Positions 41,705 to 61,549 of a stretch of DNA of 64,000 nucleotides are shown here, piece by piece. This stretch comes from a virus, in the IMG/VR virus record IMGVR_UViG_3300025570_000007; one strand, given 5' to 3'. Under the pieces are notes generated by a model that worked only from the letters and a program-made list of their open reading frames with translations, was not told the origin of the DNA and searched no databases. The stretch's first letter is position 1; each line of letters begins with the position of its first letter. The translations under genes were made by a program, and so were the position numbers.

Positions 41705-42436
41705 TTACTTTTTTGATAACTCTATATTTTTGTAAAATTCTGCTTTTGCTGAATCTTCGTTTAAAAATGCTCCTGTTAGTTTAGCTGTTTGCATTGAAGC
41801 ACCTTGATGCTTTACTCCTCTACAGCTAACACAGTTATGTGTTGCTGATATCATTACTGCTACTCCTTGATTACCTTCACAGATTTTAGTTACTGCATTG
41901 TGAATAGCTACTGTAAGCTGTTCTTGAATAGCTCCTCTTCTTGAGAAGTGTTCTGCTATCCTATTAAGTTTTGATAACCCTACTACCATTCCATCCTTAG
42001 AAGCAATATATGCTATACTTACAGTGCCCATAATAGTCTGGTGATGGTGTGAACACATTGAATTAATTGGTATGTTAGACTCTTGCACTATTCCGTCATA
42101 TCCGTCTGAAGGAAATGCTGTAATTTCTGTTAGTGGTTCAAATCTTCCTGACCATAAATCATTTACGTATGCTTTAGCTACTCTACGAGGAGTATCTGAT
42201 GAGTTTGGATCGTTTCTCCAATCACATCCTAAAGCTGTTAGAAAATCTCCAAAAGCAACTTGTGCTTTTCCTATGATAACATCCTTTTCCTGTTCTGTAA
42301 GCTTTGCCGGTCCTTCCTCCATCGCTGAAAGTGGGTCTTGGTGTTTTGTTATATTCTTTCTCTCTAAATGTAATGATATACCGTTTGCATAACCTGCTTT
42401 TACTAGTTCAGTTCCTTCTATAAACTTTTTACTCAT
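41705..42436 (-). CDS. folE: GTP cyclohydrolase I
   Basis: TPRRVAK, SMCSHH, GLSKLNR, QEQL, HNCVSCRG. Confidence 0.95.
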   Translation of the reverse strand: MSKKFIEGTELVKAGYANGISLHLERKNITKHQDPLSAMEEGPAKLTEQEKDVIIGKAQVAFGDFLTALGCDWRNDPNSSDTPRRVAKAYVNDLWSGRFEPLTEITAFPSDGYDGIVQESNIPINSMCSHHHQTIMGTVSIAYIASKDGMVVGLSKLNRIAEHFSRRGAIQEQLTVAIHNAVTKICEGNQGVAVMISATHNCVSCRGVKHQGASMQTAKLTGAFLNEDSAKAEFYKNIELSKK

Positions 42437-42475
42437 GTTCTCTTAAGTGTTTATTATAATGTATGAATTATTCCT

Positions 42476-42901
42476 CTATTTTACAAGATAATCTTGTATT
42501 GCTTTTGCTTTTACGTCCTCCCAAGGGAAAACCATCCAGTGGTCATCGTAGATTGTCTGGCCTATTAATGTAGGTATAAATCTAGAAGTTCTTCTGTATG
42601 CTAAAGCTGCTGTTATAAACTTATGCTGTGTATATTTCAGGAACGTATCTCCTGTATCTGATATATCATCAAAAATTATAATTCTCTCTTTAACCGAATC
42701 ATGTTCCTGTCCCCAACATGCTGTATGTAACTCTATAAAGGGTATGTCGTATTTATGTGAAAATATAACTGCAGGTATTAGTCCTCCTCTAGGAATTCCT
42801 GTTACGTATGCAGGTATGTTATTCTGTTCTCCTAATTGATCTCCGATTGACTCTATCTGAGTGTTTACCCAGCTCCAGTCGTATTTGACTTTTTGTGGCA
42901 T
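42476..42901 (-). CDS. type I phosphoribosyltransferase (Gpt-like)
   Basis: PRGGLIPA, IIFDDISDTGDT, WMVFPWE. Confidence 0.85.
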   Translation of the reverse strand: MPQKVKYDWSWVNTQIESIGDQLGEQNNIPAYVTGIPRGGLIPAVIFSHKYDIPFIELHTACWGQEHDSVKERIIIFDDISDTGDTFLKYTQHKFITAALAYRRTSRFIPTLIGQTIYDDHWMVFPWEDVKAKAIQDYLVK

Positions 42902-43180
42902 TTTATGAAACGTTTTGAGTCCAGTAGTCTACAGGGCACCTGTAAGATGCTATTTGAGATTTGGATCCTGTATTACCTACTCTGTTTAACTTCTCCTTTA
43001 GGTAGTCCCACTGCTTTGGTGATAGACTATAATGGTGTACTCCTTCTGTGAAGCCTCTTAACCATTGCACAAATTGGTCTTCTGTCATAACTTTATTACT
43101 TTTACTTAAAGAAGAATTCTTCTTATTTTAATATCTAAGGCTTCCCTGCACTGTTACCGTTTCTCAAGGACTTGAGTCAC

Positions 43181-43474
43181 TTAGTAGTACAGGTCTAACT
43201 GCTTTTCTCCCCACTCGTACCGTTTTAGCAGTTCTCTGTCTGATTCTGTTGCAAACATAACTACGTCAAAAGGAATTCGACATGTGACTATGTATTTCCT
43301 TAATTCTGCAAGAGTGACGTACTCTTCCTCAACTCCTTGCCAAGGGTCTTCTGAAATGAGGTATACTGTATATTCATTCGCTTTATAGTCCCATACAGGA
43401 TGTCCTCCTATTGTTACAGTATGTTGTAATCTCTCATCACCGATGGTGGTGATAAGTTCTTTAAAATTTATCAT
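43181..43474 (-). CDS. hypothetical protein
   Basis: 97-aa ORF. Confidence 0.6.
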   Translation of the reverse strand: MINFKELITTIGDERLQHTVTIGGHPVWDYKANEYTVYLISEDPWQGVEEEYVTLAELRKYIVTCRIPFDVVMFATESDRELLKRYEWGEKQLDLYY

Positions 43475-43537
43475 TAATTAATTGTTTTTAATATATAGCT
43501 TGGTAATGTACCTAACTGCATAATAATTACAAAATAA

Positions 43538-44380
43538 TTATACACAACGTTCTGTGTTAAATGCCATTATATGAGCTCTACCTGTAAACTTGTACCCCTT
43601 ATCTCTGCACATATCCATTACTACCGGGTATGATTCAAATAAAGACTCTCTGTCGTCTCCTGCTGGCATGCACCATGTTCTACCTTTTATTATCTTTTTA
43701 ATCTCATCAAGATCGAACGGATCCGTATAAGCAGAAGCTCCAAAAGATTTCTCCTCTAAGGTTTCTGCTAACTTATCTAAAAAAGCTTCAACTTCGGGCA
43801 ATACTCTCAACTCTTTATCAATTACCGGTTTTATATGAAAATCGTAATTATACATGATTGCATCAGCTATAGTGTCTGCATTCAGCCTGAACTTATTATG
43901 CTGTTTTATCATCTTCTCGTTTACTATATTACCTATAGGTGTTGTTGCTCCAACAACTGGTACAGAATTACTAAACTTAGGGCTAATAGATAGCAGATTA
44001 ATAGGATGGTCTGTGGCGAGAAAATGAGAGCCTTCAGTTTCGATCGTAATGAAAATTTCCCTTTCATGTGCAAAATGTGTTAATTCGTTTACTAGTGTTG
44101 GATGCATTGTCGGGGAACCCCCTGTTAGCATCATTTCTGTGATATGCGGGTTTGCATCGTACATATCTATTATGTCTTGGAATTTATATACTCCCTTTTC
44201 CGGATGAATGCTCGTATACCAGGAGTCACACCATCCTCCTTCTCCGAAGTAGCATCTGTGGGTACATCCTGTTGTTCTTACTACAATGGTTGGATGACCT
44301 TGTCTTGATCCTTCTGACTGTACTGCTGTATATACCTCTAGTACCGGCAGTACTTTATTATAATTCTCTAATCTTTTCAT
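43538..44380 (-). CDS. queE: 7-carboxy-7-deazaguanine synthase (radical SAM)
   Basis: VQSEG, RTTGCTHRC...WCDS, LTGGSP, IETEG, SISPK. Confidence 0.92.
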   Translation of the reverse strand: MKRLENYNKVLPVLEVYTAVQSEGSRQGHPTIVVRTTGCTHRCYFGEGGWCDSWYTSIHPEKGVYKFQDIIDMYDANPHITEMMLTGGSPTMHPTLVNELTHFAHEREIFITIETEGSHFLATDHPINLLSISPKFSNSVPVVGATTPIGNIVNEKMIKQHNKFRLNADTIADAIMYNYDFHIKPVIDKELRVLPEVEAFLDKLAETLEEKSFGASAYTDPFDLDEIKKIIKGRTWCMPAGDDRESLFESYPVVMDMCRDKGYKFTGRAHIMAFNTERCV

Positions 44381-44824
44381 ATCCTAATTTACTTTATAAA
44401 CAGGTACACTAAAAATACTACCCCAACTACTGTACCCGCAAGTACTGTTGTCACACCTAAAAATAGTAATACTCCCTTAGTGCTATTTGTTTCGTTTTTT
44501 TTCATCTTTTAATTCTATTGCGTAGACTTCAAATGTCCATTGCTGTTCTGCCCTATCCTCAATTGTTTTCTGATGGATTTTAAGTAGGCCTGTTTTTTTT
44601 AAGCTCCTCGTATATTCTTTGCCCTGCTTGTCGTTCTATATCTGCTAAGATAAATTTAGCATTGGACTCTCCTAGTCGTTCTACCAAGGCTAAGTCAATC
44701 GTATGTTTTGATTGAATCTTCGTAGGCATTGTATCAGTACGTCCTATAGTGTACATTTTCAACCTCTCTTCCGGGATCTCAATATGCTTACCAGTAATCC
44801 CTAATACTTTTGCTATGAACTTTC

Positions 44825-45397
44825 TCATGATTTTCTATCATCATACTCTAACACTCCCTTTTCGATTGCATAATTTCTAATACCCTCTAGGTTCTGTTTA
44901 CTGAAGTTTGTAGCTTCCTTTATTGAGATACTATCCCCATAACACTCTGTCCAGCAATTAGGAGTTTCGTAAATTTTAATTTTATGTATTGCTAACCCTG
45001 TTGGAGTATCTTTATATAGAGTCTCAGACAAAACAACCATTGCTAAAAATACCTCTTTTGCAATATTCTCAACGGTTGGATTACAGTATTCATCTTCACC
45101 ATTTAATGACATTAACCACAATTTAGACTTATACTCTTTTGTAGTTTCAATAATCTTTGTATCCTTAGGATTTAAAATCATCCCATGGTCTAAAATATCA
45201 TCTATCCACTGGCAAAAGACTCTTTTAATTTCTTTAAAATCAATTGCATATCCTATCTCTTCCATATTCTCAAAAGAGAATGTTAATTCATATAGGTAGG
45301 TATGTCCGTGTAGGTTAAAACATTTCATTGCTTCGTTCATGACTCTGTGTCCTGAATCGAAATTACCTTTACGGCTAATGTACTGTGTTTTTTTCAT
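44825..45397 (-). CDS. queD: 6-carboxytetrahydropterin synthase
   Basis: FDSGH, CFNLHGHTY, DH, PTVEN, YET. Confidence 0.92.
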   Translation of the reverse strand: MKKTQYISRKGNFDSGHRVMNEAMKCFNLHGHTYLYELTFSFENMEEIGYAIDFKEIKRVFCQWIDDILDHGMILNPKDTKIIETTKEYKSKLWLMSLNGEDEYCNPTVENIAKEVFLAMVVLSETLYKDTPTGLAIHKIKIYETPNCWTECYGDSISIKEATNFSKQNLEGIRNYAIEKGVLEYDDRKS

Positions 45398-52473: not shown

Positions 52474-52676
52474 ACGAGAATTCTAAGTTGAGTTTTATGC
52501 CACTAACCCTGTGGCAGATAGGAAGCCTTGTTTATACTCCCGAAACAATGTTAAACCTTGCTTTACACGGGTACTCTCTGACTTAAAGAGTGATTTTCAG
52601 TCTGTCGAATTATGTATAGTTATGTGGCTCTTAACCACCTAAGTGTTTTTCGAAGTACCTCAGTCTTTTACTACGT
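52474..52676 (-). ncRNA. Y-RNA-like element Y1 (~200 nt)
   Basis: 5' ACGUAGUAAAAGACUGAGGUACUUCG / 3' ACUCAACUUAGAAUUCUCGU; downstream of TROVE. Confidence 0.7.
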
Positions 52677-52743: not shown

Positions 52744-54288
52744 TTAAATTTCTATAGCTTCAATTGCTTTGATTACAGCTCTTGGATCTATTTCAACTCT
52801 TTTTACTAGCTCATACATTTCTGATGAGTATCCAGCTAACTGGTAAAGTTTTTGAGTTGTTGGCTTAAACATTGTAGTTGAATATCCACAGATGTTTATT
52901 GAATATACGTGCATCTTGTTATAGTTGCTTGGTGAAATGTACGAAGCTCCTTGCATATCCGAGATAATAAAGATTCTGTCGTACTTATTCCCAATCGTAC
53001 TAAAAATACCATTAAACTCAGTTCCATACCCTACAGTTCCCTGTAATTTTCTAAACTGATTTTTAATAGTATTTATACTATCTAAAGGATTGAACTTAAT
53101 TGCAGCGACACTACTAGCGAAGTGGTATACATCGGCGTTAATCCCTTTACCTAAAGTTGCAGCTACTAAAGCAGCTTTTTCAATAGCAGATTTACTACCA
53201 GGTTTCCCATTTGCTAATCTGATCGATGATCCCATTGATCCTGAACTATCAAAGATAACTGCAGTTTTACCTGCTGGAAATAGTGATGTTAGGTTCGGAA
53301 TCGCAAGTTCGTAAGCTTTATCTAGTGCTGTAATGAATGGTAACGCTTTTGACGCTCCTATATCCTGTAGTAACACTTCTAATGCTAAATCGATTTGGTG
53401 AGGGAATACTAGAGATTTTCTAATAGTTGCTTCATCTGTTAAGATAGCAATTGCTCCGTCAATCAATTCTTTATTTGAACTAGTTTGTAAGATATTACGT
53501 AAGTTACGTAGTAACGCTAAATACCCTATTTTTTTAGTTGCAATTAATTCAGCATAATTTGATTCCTTAGCTTGTGTTAACTCTACCTTAGCTTCCGCTT
53601 TAGTAATAGTACCTTCTTTTACTTTCTTAGCAACATCTTGTCCAGCTGATGTATTCTTATCTTCAACAGTGTTGAATTGCTTTAACTCTCCAGTCATTAA
53701 CTGTTTGAAAGTTTTTTGCATATCTTCACTTGGTTTTGGACGAACTAAGTTTACAATATCAACTAAGGAAACATCTTTATTCTTTCCTTGGTATTTTGCT
53801 AACTCGTAAGTATCAGCAGCCTCTAAAGCAGCTTTAAATCCTTTCTTCATTGCGTTTGGCAATGGTTTTCCGGGATTGAAGTGTTGATAACAAGCTACTA
53901 TTTCTAGTAAGTCATCTAACCTAAACACGATACCTCCTGTTTTAAATTTCTTACTTCTCTTTGAGAAGAATTTACGTGCAATTCCTCTACCTGATAGGTA
54001 AGGTGCTAATGCTACTGCTCCAAACTGGGTAACACTTCTTTGGCCCATTACAGATCTAGCATATACTAGTGCTTTAGCTACGAATTCAGGTTCTTTTTGA
54101 GCTAACTTTACGATAAGCTCTTTGAATCTAACTTCTCTGTCTGATAATTTCTCGTAATAAGTATTATCAAAACCTGTTGCTAAAATAGCAACTAATTCAT
54201 GTTTTGGATCTAATTTGTAACCTTCACCTCCTTGGTGGTTTGTTACTGTAGGTGTTGCAGTCTTTTTGTTTTTGTTGTAAACTGACAT
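52744..54288 (-). CDS. rsr: TROVE-domain Ro60/Rsr RNA-binding protein
   Basis: NHQGGEGY, YQ/YE-LAKY, ALLRNLRN, vWA DSSGSM and ISDMQ motifs. Confidence 0.92.
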   Translation of the reverse strand: MSVYNKNKKTATPTVTNHQGGEGYKLDPKHELVAILATGFDNTYYEKLSDREVRFKELIVKLAQKEPEFVAKALVYARSVMGQRSVTQFGAVALAPYLSGRGIARKFFSKRSKKFKTGGIVFRLDDLLEIVACYQHFNPGKPLPNAMKKGFKAALEAADTYELAKYQGKNKDVSLVDIVNLVRPKPSEDMQKTFKQLMTGELKQFNTVEDKNTSAGQDVAKKVKEGTITKAEAKVELTQAKESNYAELIATKKIGYLALLRNLRNILQTSSNKELIDGAIAILTDEATIRKSLVFPHQIDLALEVLLQDIGASKALPFITALDKAYELAIPNLTSLFPAGKTAVIFDSSGSMGSSIRLANGKPGSKSAIEKAALVAATLGKGINADVYHFASSVAAIKFNPLDSINTIKNQFRKLQGTVGYGTEFNGIFSTIGNKYDRIFIISDMQGASYISPSNYNKMHVYSINICGYSTTMFKPTTQKLYQLAGYSSEMYELVKRVEIDPRAVIKAIEAIEI

Positions 54289-54444: not shown

Positions 54445-54529
54445 TGTTCAAGGGAATGGGTGCAGTGGGATATTGTTAATTAGATTTGAAGTCTGAGTCG
54501 AAGTAACCCGGTTGCTAACCACTTGAATA
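54445..54529 (-). ncRNA. Y-RNA-like element Y3 (anticodon-loop-like cargo)
   Basis: UUCAAGUGGUUA..GGGUUACUUCG / AUCCC..UUCCCUUGAA; internal AGA-CUUCAAA-UCU. Confidence 0.7.
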
Positions 54530-54534
54530 TGTTG

Positions 54535-54690
54535 TTATAAGGGAATGGGTGATGACAGCTAGTTTTAACGCGCCTTTACCAATTTGGCCACCTCCCAAGA
54601 TTTCTTACTTTCTTAGTTGGGAGGGAAGGACTCGAACCTCCAAATACGTGCTCTAAATGCGATGTAACTGTATTATCTTACCACTTATAA
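54535..54690 (-). ncRNA. YrlA-like RNA Y4 (permuted tRNA-like domain)
   Basis: shared stem enclosing T-arm GGAGGUUCGAGUCCUUC, closed acceptor CCUCCCAA/UUGGGAGG, then D-arm GCCAAAUUGGUAAAGGC. Confidence 0.85.
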
Positions 54691-54697
54691 TATGTTT

Positions 54698-54845
54698 AAA
54701 AATAAAGAAGGGAACGGCTAACAGAGTGTATATCGTGCTCTACCAACTGAGCTACTGAAGGGATATATTCCCCCAGGCTGGATTCGAACCAGCGACCACG
54801 TCGTTACAAGCGAAGTAATTCTTATTATTACCACTTTTTATTTTT
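54698..54845 (-). ncRNA. YrlA-like RNA Y5 (permuted tRNA-like domain)
   Basis: shared stem enclosing T-arm GCUGGUUCGAAUCCAGC, closed acceptor CUGGGGGA/UCCCUUCAG, D-arm GCUCAGUUGGUAGAGC. Confidence 0.85.
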
Positions 54846-55040: not shown

Positions 55041-55158
55041 ATTATTAAAGAGAGTTTCGGGTCTTTCAAGGTTACTTCCCTATAGCGAGGCTAACCTTTA
55101 CCTATATCGCCAGCTGTTATGAAGCTTCACTACTCTCCTTAATGGTTTTTAAAATTAG

Positions 55159-55229
55159 AAGCGGTCGTGGGACTCGAACCCAACCGTAGGGTTATGAGCC
55201 CTGCATGCTACCAGTTACAACACCCCGCG
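55159..55229 (-). tRNA. tRNA-fMet-like (CAT), imperfect acceptor stem
   Basis: GGG/CCC anticodon stem, C1 mismatch; two extra acceptor mismatches. Confidence 0.7.
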
Positions 55230-55255
55230 ATGTTACTTTCTATTAAACTAATTAG

Positions 55256-58999: not shown

Positions 59000-59215
59000 G
59001 ATACCTAGTTTTCGTACTAGGTAAACGTGAATCCGTGCTCCCTTAGAAACACCTAAATTCAACAGCTGCTAGGCTGCTAATGCAAAGTTGTCGTTTGCGT
59101 AAATACTAATCTACTATCATCCACGTTTTCCATTGTCAAAACCAGTCGGCCCCATGGTCTTAAAAGTCTCATAGTGGAGCCGGAGAGTATCGAACTCTCG
59201 TCCAACGAAATGTCA
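59000..59215 (-). ncRNA. ssrA: permuted two-piece tmRNA, tag ANDNFALAA
   Basis: acceptor piece GGACGAGAGUUCGAUACUCUCCGGCUCCA precedes GGGGCCGACUGGUUUUGAC; G3:U70; tag ORF 59098..59069; outer ends approximate. Confidence 0.9.
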
Positions 59216-59240
59216 ATAATTATCAACGATTTGTATTTTG

Positions 59241-60362: not shown

Positions 60363-60486
60363 TGGTGGGGAAGGTTGGATTTGAACCAACAATGTCAAAT
60401 TTCAAGTTTGATTGTTTACCGAAGTAACTCAATTGTATTACTACCATTTCTGAAGAAAGTCTACGCGAGTTGTTTATTTCTTCCCC
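60363..60486 (-). ncRNA. tRNA/Y-module chimera (anticodon UGA; Y module replaces D-arm)
   Basis: GGGGAAG/CUUCCCC-ACCA acceptor, UCAAA-CUUGAAA-UUUGA, T-arm; permuted module closed by GAAA. Confidence 0.8.
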
Positions 60487-60649: not shown

Positions 60650-60758
60650 TGGCTGGGGTTTAGAGATTTTGTTTAATACTCTCTCCGGGGCCACCCCCTT
60701 TAAGTACTTTTTCAACCATTTTTTCCTGTTTCCTTCTTTCGGTTAGGTCTCCGCCTCG

Positions 60759-60829
60759 TGCCGCCAGTAGGAATCGAACCTACCCAGTAGAGTTTTACAG
60801 ACTCGCTCGGCACCTTGCCTGTTGTCGGC
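60759..60829 (-). tRNA. atypical tRNA-Tyr (GTA)
   Basis: GAGU-CUGUAAA-ACUC; shortened D-arm; no long variable arm. Confidence 0.65.
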
Positions 60830-60837
60830 TTTAAAAA

Positions 60838-60970
60838 AATTAAGAGAAAGTTTAGAAGAGCTGTTTTGGTTGCAGATACGGGATTTGAACCCGTCACCTA
60901 TTGATTTGAAGTCAATTGCTCTACCATGTGAGCTAATTTGCGAAGTAACTCTTTCCATTACTACTTAATT
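60838..60970 (-). ncRNA. Y-RNA-like element enclosing a whole tRNA
   Basis: AAUUAAGUAGUAA..AAGAGUUACUUCG / AGCUCUU..UUCUCUUAAUU flanking tRNA 60867-60942. Confidence 0.8.
60867..60942 (-). tRNA. tRNA with UCA anticodon (opal-suppressor-like), encoded CCA
   Basis: AUUGA-CUUCAAA-UCAAU; canonical D and T arms; C1:A72 and A5:C68 mismatches. Confidence 0.8.
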
Positions 60971-61457: not shown

Positions 61458-61549
61458 CGGAAGATGGCGGATTCGAACCCCCACATCTGTTACAATACTC
61501 GCTTTTCAAGAGCGCCGCCGCTACCCAGAATCTTTCGGCTTAATCTTCC
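61458..61549 (-). tRNA. tRNA-Ser (TGA), enlarged D-loop
   Basis: CGCU-CUUGAAA-AGCG; long variable arm; G73. Confidence 0.8.

What the first reader, a model, noticed from the sequence alone, without database searches (positions are those of the whole stretch)
60838..60970. Complete UCA-anticodon (opal-reading) tRNA enclosed inside a Y-module stem
Seen: a full cloverleaf (60867-60942; AUUGA-CUUCAAA-UCAAU; encoded CCA; C1:A72 mismatch) whose leader and trailer are the two strands of the Y module. The conserved UUCG overlaps tRNA positions 1-2. The short variable arm and 7-bp acceptor argue against tRNA-Sec, and a standard Trp(CCA) tRNA is also present. Inference: Ro60 binding could mask the RNase P site and the 3' end, gating release of a UGA suppressor, or the intact RNA could act as a decoy.
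Basis: partly seen in the sequence, partly recalled or inferred. Interest (0 to 1): 0.85.

Follow-up and report, generated by a model that had tools for sequence, protein, structure and literature searches.

The report
Whole tRNA clamped in phage Y-RNA
This phage wraps a complete tRNA shape inside the RNA "handle" shared by the partner RNAs of its Ro60 protein; about 100 relatives carry 29 different anticodons and mostly lack a chargeable end, so it is most likely a tRNA look-alike (bait or tether), not a gated stop-codon suppressor.

Summary
Observation confirmed. A 76-nt cloverleaf (UCA, encoded CCA, C1:A72, plus an unreported A5:C68 mismatch) sits inside a covarying stem. Six other RNAs of this phage share the stem; the phage encodes Ro60/TROVE at 52744-54288.

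The gated-suppressor reading is mostly not supported:
- 101 dereplicated handle-plus-unpermuted-tRNA relatives show 29 anticodons; only 2 are UCA.
- Their acceptor strands are 2-10 nt, and most lack CCA.
- The phage uses code 11, with no TGA-split gene in the 63% held.
- The stem leaves the RNase P site and CCA unpaired.

TROVE occurs in 23 of 26 carrier records (12/12 near-complete). The loops keep U33, the natural 36/37 rule and the Levitt pair, so they stay tRNA-like.

Best reading: a Ro60-bound, non-decoding tRNA mimic, a Y-RNA topology I found in no held paper (YrlA is permuted and lacks the anticodon loop). It is probably a decoy or tether; function is untested.

A residual hint remains. 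CCA-keeping copies read stops in 3 of 8 lineages, the most similar scaffold reads UAA, and two sister RNAs carry stop-reading loops.

This scan noted a Ro60-linked handle and a UUA twin earlier on other DNA.

The parts
60838..60970 (-). Whole Y RNA gene, about 133 nt: handle enclosing an unpermuted tRNA cloverleaf (ends predicted, not mapped)
   Evidence: model R1 scores the class 81-126 bits versus at most 63 for other matches, including all ordinary tRNAs
60943..60970 (-). 5' strand of the handle: outer helix with bulged U, inner helix, unpaired ACUU next to C1
60958..60964 (-). GUAGUAA (family RGURGYNA) bulged-helix motif; by position the counterpart of the YrlA GNCGAA Ro60 motif (inference)
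   Evidence: PMC4201824
60941..60949 (-). GUUACUUCG motif: UUAC matches the YrlA YUAY; the last CG is tRNA positions 1-2; second candidate Ro60 contact
60867..60942 (-). tRNA cloverleaf in normal D-anticodon-T order; C1:A72 and A5:C68 mismatches; C15:G48 Levitt pair; A73; CCA
60907..60909 (-). Anticodon UCA in loop CUUCAAA
60838..60866 (-). 3' strand of the handle (unpaired AAAAC linker after CCA, then the pairing pyrimidine tracts)
52744..54288 (-). Ro60/TROVE protein, 514 aa; presumed binding partner
   Evidence: Pfam TROVE E 1e-14; only significant PDB match is Thermus phage phiLo Ro60, E 2.5e-15
54698..54845 (-). Sister Y RNA, YrlA-type permuted tRNA, loop CUUGUAA (UGU)
   Evidence: Rfam YrlA 36.3 bits, below the 69-bit cut-off
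54535..54690 (-). Sister Y RNA, YrlA-type, loop AUUUAGA (UUA, ochre-reading)
54445..54529 (-). Sister Y RNA carrying only an anticodon hairpin with the same CUUCAAA loop
54373..54441 (-). Short sister Y RNA, handle closest in sequence to the finding
60363..60486 (-). Sister element: tRNA-Ser(UGA)-like RNA whose D arm is replaced by the handle
52474..52676 (-). Sister handle RNA just downstream of the TROVE gene; the same type lies there in relatives

Best explanation
It is a Y RNA of the phage's own Ro60, in a wiring where the handle extends the acceptor end of a complete, unpermuted tRNA.

Shown here: the structure and its covariation, the shared handle, the tight link to TROVE, free anticodon change and kept tRNA tertiary signatures.

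Inferred: (1) it is transcribed with the tRNA operon and cut out between tRNA-Val and a tRNA-Tyr-like gene; (2) Ro60 binds the handle and protects both ends; (3) the particle shows an L-shaped tRNA with a natural-looking anticodon loop that is not charged or used in decoding; (4) it works as bait or a competitive inhibitor for host enzymes that attack tRNA, such as anticodon nucleases, with the clamp holding nicked halves together. UCA is most simply a position-34 variant of a Cys(GCA) or Trp(CCA) loop.

Odds: about 0.8 that it is a Ro60-bound non-decoding mimic, and about 0.5 for the whole statement including the decoy role.
For: Same handle on seven RNAs of this genome with different tRNA pieces. 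TROVE in 23/26 carrier virus records and 12/12 of those at least 90% complete, in 4/5 further records, and in 4/4 bacterial MAG carriers. 29 anticodons, acceptor strands of 2-10 nt (18 of 101 have only 2), and CCA at 74-76 in 5 of the 24 copies with a 7-nt strand. Loci found through the protein alone carry UCC, UUG, UGA, GCU, GUG, UUC, UAU and UAC, never UCA. U33 in 78/95 and a purine at 37 in 91/95. G36 goes with G37 in 29/30, and others with A37; the Levitt pair is complementary in 54/67 versus 23 expected; A34, which bacterial tRNAs rarely use (own knowledge), appears in 10/95, showing drift at position 34. Hughes et al. proposed a competitive-inhibitor role for YrlA (PMC7790460). A Ro60-like Bas63 protein counters the Ppl defence (bioRxiv 10.1101/2024.10.10.617714).
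Against: The handle does not match GNCGAA exactly, and sister RNAs score below the Rfam YrlA cut-off. This copy does have a 7-nt acceptor strand and CCA, so RNase P could cut it, as it does M. smegmatis YrlA (PMC4201824). The loop statistics are not corrected for relatedness and could reflect recent copying from real tRNAs. I know of no nuclease that targets a UCA loop. The gene lies 6.5 kb from TROVE, outside the usual 4 kb.
Confidence: 0.5

Rival explanations
1. Tether or brake for a host nuclease (RYPER-like). Ro60 plus this RNA recruits or slows PNPase. The tRNA fold only gives stability or an elbow to bind, and the anticodon is a passenger.
For: Established for D. radiodurans Yrn1 (PMC4201824). 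phiLo Ro60, the best PDB match, forms complexes with host PNPase and slows it (PMC12135203). Free anticodon change fits.
Against: Does not explain why U33, purine 37 and the 36/37 rule persist, or why other wirings also display true 7-nt loops (YrlA-type U33 17/17, R37 17/17). Not exclusive of the decoy role.
Confidence: 0.24
2. Gated nonsense suppressor. Ro60 blocks RNase P; on release a 76-nt tRNA is charged and reads UGA.
For: Canonical length, 7-nt acceptor strand, encoded CCA, U33 and A37. Of 8 lineages with CCA at 74-76, three read stops (UCA, UCA, UUA). Leaving out this copy, 2/7 versus 0-1/89 others (Fisher p 0.005-0.013, uncorrected). The scaffold with the same acceptor 5' strand and anticodon stem (L543) has UUA.
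Against: Five of the 8 CCA lineages read sense codons, and UCA changes to CAG on one scaffold. No TGA-split coding-strand gene and no density gain under TGA=Trp. The UUA carrier ends most genes in TAA. From my own knowledge: C1:A72 weakens EF-Tu use, and no synthetase identity set fits (A73 not G73/U73, no long arm, no A20, no G3:U70). Second mismatch A5:C68. The closest TROVE relatives (75-76%) lack the element at this place.
Confidence: 0.1
3. Stop-codon-directed but uncharged ribosome ligand. The RNA, whole or RNase P-nicked, pairs with stop codons and competes with release factors or signals stalling; alternatively stop anticodons are kept because they cannot miscode sense codons.
For: Three of five anticodon-bearing handle RNAs in this genome read stops (UCA, UCA, UUA), against none among about 36 YrlA-type and other tRNA-shaped wirings from other genomes. 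CCA-linked enrichment. The acceptor end resembles initiator tRNA (C1:A72, G2:C71, C3:G70, A73).
Against: Small numbers, related sequences, and a test chosen after seeing the data. Lacks the three G:C anticodon-stem pairs of initiator tRNA. Most of the family reads sense codons.
Confidence: 0.1
4. An ordinary decaying tRNA gene, tRNA-Sec or a code-4 tRNA-Trp whose flanks pair by chance.
For: It sits in a tRNA array; ARAGORN labels it SeC; the single-sequence folding z-score is modest.
Against: Covarying outer stem, shared handle, TROVE link, clear score gap to ordinary tRNAs, 5-nt variable loop and 7/5 fold, code 11.
Confidence: 0.03

Closest known systems
YrlA Y RNAs (Rfam RF02553; Chen et al. 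2014, PMC4201824; structure in bioRxiv 10.1101/312249)
   Same: Encoded on the same strand as a Ro60/TROVE gene; terminal stem, then a YUAY-like motif; tRNA domain with conserved D and T arms and Levitt pair; several Y RNAs per locus; a 7-bp acceptor may be cut by RNase P.
   Different: YrlA is circularly permuted (T arm, closed acceptor, D arm) and is described as lacking the anticodon loop and a free CCA. Here the order is D-anticodon-T with a full loop, and the handle sits at the acceptor end. The 5' motif is RGURGYNA, not GNCGAA. No YrlA match on this element.
Deinococcus radiodurans Yrn1 (PMC4201824)
   Same: The anticodon-like arm lies between a D-like element and the T arm, inside a Ro60-binding stem.
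   Different: Yrn1 has no full D arm, a 6-nt loop, no variable arm and a metazoan-like Ro60 box. This element is a complete tRNA (Rfam 60.5 bits) with CCA.
Thermus phage phiLo Ro60 with Yrl1/Yrl2 (PMC12135203; PDB 9KOP, 9L5Y)
   Same: Phage-encoded Ro60, the best structural relative by sequence; stem-bulge-stem RNA partners.
   Different: Its RNAs carry CGAA and the paper describes no tRNA-like domain. I did not see the GUUACUUCG handle in the 500 nt upstream of its gene.
UGA-reading tRNAs: tRNA-Sec, selC* tRNA-Cys(UCA) (PMC5389517), code-4 tRNA-Trp(UCA) of recoded phages
   Same: UCA anticodon; loop CUUCAAA.
   Different: No 8/5, 8/4 or 9/4 fold, no long variable arm, no U73 or G73. The genome is not recoded, and the anticodon is not conserved in the family.
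Initiator tRNA-fMet (own knowledge)
   Same: C1:A72, G2:C71, C3:G70, A73, T loop UUCAAAU.
   Different: No CAU anticodon, no three G:C pairs in the anticodon stem, no A11:U24. C1-G2 is imposed by the handle motif.

Membership tests
Bacterial/phage Y RNA (broad) | Genome encodes a Ro60/TROVE protein on the same strand | tested here: met
   23/26 carrier records
Bacterial/phage Y RNA (broad) | Long stem from pairing of 5' and 3' ends with a conserved bulged helix | tested here: met
Bacterial/phage Y RNA (broad) | Within about 4 kb of the Ro60 gene | tested here: not met
   6.5 kb away in this genome; sisters, and homologues in L028, L118, L589 and L579, lie within 2 kb
Bacterial/phage Y RNA (broad) | Expressed and bound by Ro60 | not testable with these tools
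YrlA (RF02553) | Circularly permuted tRNA domain (T arm before D arm, closed acceptor) | tested here: not met
   normal order D-anticodon-T
YrlA (RF02553) | 5' GNCGAA(N)G motif | tested here: not met
   GUAGUAA at the matching position; UUCG(C) is only a partial look-alike
YrlA (RF02553) | YUAY after the inner stem | tested here: met
   UUAC at 60948-60945; fixed in the family partly by my search pattern
YrlA (RF02553) | Rfam score at or above 69 bits | tested here: not met
   no YrlA match listed on the element; sisters 21-38 bits
tRNA-Sec | 12-13 bp acceptor-T branch (8/5 or 9/4) and long variable arm | tested here: not met
   7/5 fold, 5-nt variable loop
Nonsense-suppressor tRNA of a recoded phage | In-frame TGA in genes or higher coding density under code 4 | tested here: not met
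   only 63% of the genome is held
Nonsense-suppressor tRNA of a recoded phage | Anticodon conserved among homologues | tested here: not met
   29 anticodons, UCA in 2 of 95
Nonsense-suppressor tRNA of a recoded phage | Processed, aminoacylated and reads UGA | not testable with these tools
   needs northern, charging and reporter assays

The most novel reading that the evidence does not exclude
A sub-lineage of these Y RNAs (C1:A72, 7-nt acceptor strand, encoded CCA) has been selected to display stop-reading anticodons (UCA, UUA). It acts at termination, either as a Ro60-gated suppressor released by RNase P or as an uncharged competitor of release factors. This would be the first case of a Y RNA serving as a regulated tRNA precursor.
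Probability: 0.15. Interest if true: 0.88.

Novelty: new variant of a known kind. Interest (0 to 1): 0.55.

Why it matters
What the tRNA domain of bacterial Y RNAs is for has been open since 2014. This family makes it testable. One handle carries tRNA in at least five wirings: at the acceptor end, in the anticodon stem, at the variable loop, in place of the D arm, and as a lone anticodon hairpin. Most wirings show a natural-looking anticodon loop, which points to anticodon-recognising enzymes as the partner.

It also corrects annotation. These RNAs are called as tRNAs by standard tools: here as 'SeC', elsewhere as 'Stop', and in GenBank OR575929 (crAssE-Sib) as tRNA-Tyr and tRNA-Lys. Some apparent phage suppressor tRNAs may therefore be Y RNAs, which matters for claims of recoding.

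Tried and rejected
Searches that gave nothing useful:
- BLASTN of the element against phage records returned only ordinary tRNAs.
- RtcB, RNA ligase PF09414 and RF-1 domains were not found in the held contig, which is 63% complete. Some relatives have RtcB or an RNA ligase.
- Model R1 over 151 genomes of the phylum of a Saprospiraceae carrier found nothing at a strict cut-off. The carrier itself did not ring, so this shows nothing.
- Two reviews (Sim and Wolin 2018; Sim et al. 2020) are not held, so a mention of this topology there cannot be excluded.

Readings rejected:
- tRNA-Sec, code-4 Trp, an assembly error and chance pairing.
- The coverage gain on reading TAA through in G027 is what removing the commonest stop gives, not recoding.

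Caveats:
- Anticodons were parsed by script and a few degenerate ones may be misread.
- The motif's invariance is partly built into my patterns, and the CCA scan forced C71-A72.

Full report
Setting. The window is the first 64 kb of a 104,202-base linear virus record, 36% GC and estimated 63% complete. A tRNA array runs on the minus strand from about 61.5 to 55 kb. It ends at a 514-aa TROVE protein (52744-54288; Pfam E 1e-14) whose only significant PDB match is Thermus phage phiLo Ro60. The host is probably Bacteroidota; this is an inference from a Bacteroidetes-labelled homologue and from related loci.

Observation. There is a 76-nt cloverleaf at 60867-60942 with loop CUUCAAA, a 5-nt variable loop, A73 and CCA. 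The acceptor stem has a second mismatch, A5:C68. Leader and trailer form an outer helix with a bulged U and an inner helix. The four bases before C1 and the stretch A72-CCA-AAAAC are predicted unpaired, so the stem encloses the tRNA without pairing its processing sites. Five other assemblies carry the identical element.

The handle. The motif GUUACWUCG, preceded by RGURGYNA, occurs with at most one mismatch at seven places: this element, four RNAs just upstream of TROVE, one downstream, and one at 60363-60486. Two sisters weakly match Rfam YrlA (36 and 21 bits, cut-off 69). The YrlA consensus begins with ggCgaAUG, a 7-bp stem and CUAc. This maps by position onto GUAGUAA, the inner helix and UUAC, which would put the Ro60 site at the distal bulged helix about 16-22 nt from C1. 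The alternative, that UUCG(A) corresponds to the CGAA that phiLo Ro60 needs (PMC12135203), is not excluded.

The family. Scans that did not constrain the anticodon gave 341 elements in 114 clusters at 88% identity, of which 101 passed structure filters. Of 95 seven-nucleotide loops, 29 different anticodons occur, led by UUG (13), UGG (8), UUU (7), GUA (6) and GCA (6). UCA occurs twice, here and in L028. The acceptor 5' strand is 2-10 nt long, and CCA at 74-76 is present in 5 of the 24 copies with a 7-nt strand. On 42 members the named structure is 94.9% paired with covariation in all five helices. A covariance model scores the class at 81-126 bits, including held-out copies, and all other matches at 63 or less. 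TROVE is present in 23 of 26 carrier records and in all 12 that are at least 90% complete, and in four bacterial MAG carriers. Starting from the protein instead, related phages carry the same wiring with UCC, UUG, UGA, GCU, GUG, UUC, UAU and UAC. The two closest TROVE relatives examined have no such element between tRNA-Val and tRNA-Tyr.

What is kept. The loops remain tRNA-like: U33 in 78/95 and a purine at 37 in 91/95. G36 is followed by G37 in 29 of 30 cases, and by G in only 3 of 65 others; the 15:48 pair is complementary in 54 of 67 versus 23 expected, with C15:G48 here. These counts are not corrected for relatedness. Position 34 drifts: 10 of 95 have A34. UCA is one change at position 34 from the Cys loop CUGCAAA or the Trp loop CUCCAAA. 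The same handle also carries tRNA broken in the anticodon stem (YrlA type; U33 and purine 37 in 17/17), at the variable loop, in place of the D arm, or as a lone hairpin. The cargo is closer to other CCA-type handle tRNAs (alignment score 50-56 of 76) than to any of this phage's own tRNAs (45.5 at most).

Test of suppression. Coding density barely moves under TGA=Trp (0.69 to 0.70 at 150 aa). TGA ends 15 of 111 long ORFs, several of them overlapping the next gene's start. No coding-strand gene is split by an in-frame TGA; the single candidate is a TGA followed at once by a new ATG. From my own knowledge, C1:A72 disfavours EF-Tu, and the identity elements of TrpRS (G73), CysRS (U73), SerRS (long arm), ArgRS (A20) and AlaRS (G3:U70) are absent.

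Evidence on the other side. Excluding this copy, 2 of 7 read stops versus 0-1 of 89 others (p 0.005-0.013). In this genome a YrlA-type sister shows UUA and a hairpin sister shows the same CUUCAAA. This is a small, after-the-fact signal, but it is not nil. The UUA carrier uses TAA as its main stop and shows no sign of recoding.

Mechanism. Most likely the RNA is made with the tRNA operon (promoter-like sites near 61.7-62.0 kb are consensus matches only), released between tRNA-Val and the tRNA-Tyr-like gene, and bound by the phage Ro60. It would then present a non-decoding tRNA shape. I favour a decoy or competitive inhibitor of tRNA-attacking defence enzymes, an idea raised for YrlA by Hughes et al. 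(PMC7790460). It is consistent with a Ro60-like protein of phage Bas63 countering the Ppl defence. A PNPase tether or brake, as for Yrn1 and phiLo, is the main rival. RNase P may still nick this copy, as it does M. smegmatis YrlA with its 7-bp acceptor. None of these steps was tested.

Comparison with what is known. It works like a YrlA-type Y RNA but is not a YrlA member: the order is unpermuted, the anticodon loop is complete, the 5' motif differs and there is no Rfam match. Yrn1 has a similar order but an incomplete fold. Ten literature searches found no description of a complete tRNA inside a Y stem, but two key reviews are not held. The crAssE-Sib record annotates two such RNAs as tRNA-Tyr and tRNA-Lys, and its paper does not discuss them. 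Earlier notes of this scan reported the seven modules of this genome, a UUA twin that matches L543, and similar handle systems. I checked the first two directly.

Verdict. A real feature and a new variant of a known kind. The gated opal suppressor is unlikely (about 0.1), and some role at stop codons has about 0.15-0.2. Interest 0.55.

Noticed in passing
window 60758-60829 (-): tRNA-Tyr(GUA)-like gene with loop CUGUAAA and a short variable arm, missed by ARAGORN and by the Rfam tRNA model; relatives have tRNA-Tyr at this place in the array.
   Followed up: partly
window 55157-55236 (-): Initiator tRNA (CAU) missed by ARAGORN (Rfam 27.7 bits). Its leader plus first bases read GUAACAUCG, one mismatch from the handle motif, hinting at how a handle-tRNA fusion could arise at a C1-G2 start.
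   Followed up: no
window 61459-61549 (-): Long-arm tRNA-like gene with a UGA (Ser) anticodon; only a weak Rfam tRNA-Sec hit (22.8 bits), not called by ARAGORN.
   Followed up: no
window 59069-59227 (-): Permuted two-piece tmRNA inside the tRNA array (Rfam RF04321, 64 bits).
   Followed up: no
window 60650-60757 (-): About 105-nt spacer between the tRNA-Tyr-like gene and tRNA-Phe with G/C-rich segments; possibly another structured RNA.
   Followed up: no
window 54535-54845 and 15 homologues: In the YrlA-type copies of this clade, the hairpin after the handle is the lower anticodon stem with a true 7-nt loop (U33 and purine 37 in 17/17); the published 'V stem-loop' of YrlA may be the same thing.
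   Followed up: partly
L579 3666-3884 (GenBank OR575929, crAssE-Sib): Annotated tRNA-Tyr and tRNA-Lys just upstream of the Ro60 gene are handle-enclosed tRNA mimics; the same pair occurs in many gut phage contigs.
   Followed up: yes
L593 9040-9113; L543 2608-2680: ARAGORN 'tRNA-Stop (UUA)' calls that are handle RNAs; apparent phage suppressor tRNAs should be screened for the handle.
   Followed up: partly
L324 5475-7620; L305 2716-2840: Saprospiraceae MAGs carry handle RNAs, one with a long-variable-arm tRNA body, inside a chromosomal tRNA array; these genomes encode TROVE.
   Followed up: partly
window 41705-45397 (-): GTP cyclohydrolase I, radical SAM and PTPS genes, suggesting 7-deazaguanine synthesis.
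   Followed up: no
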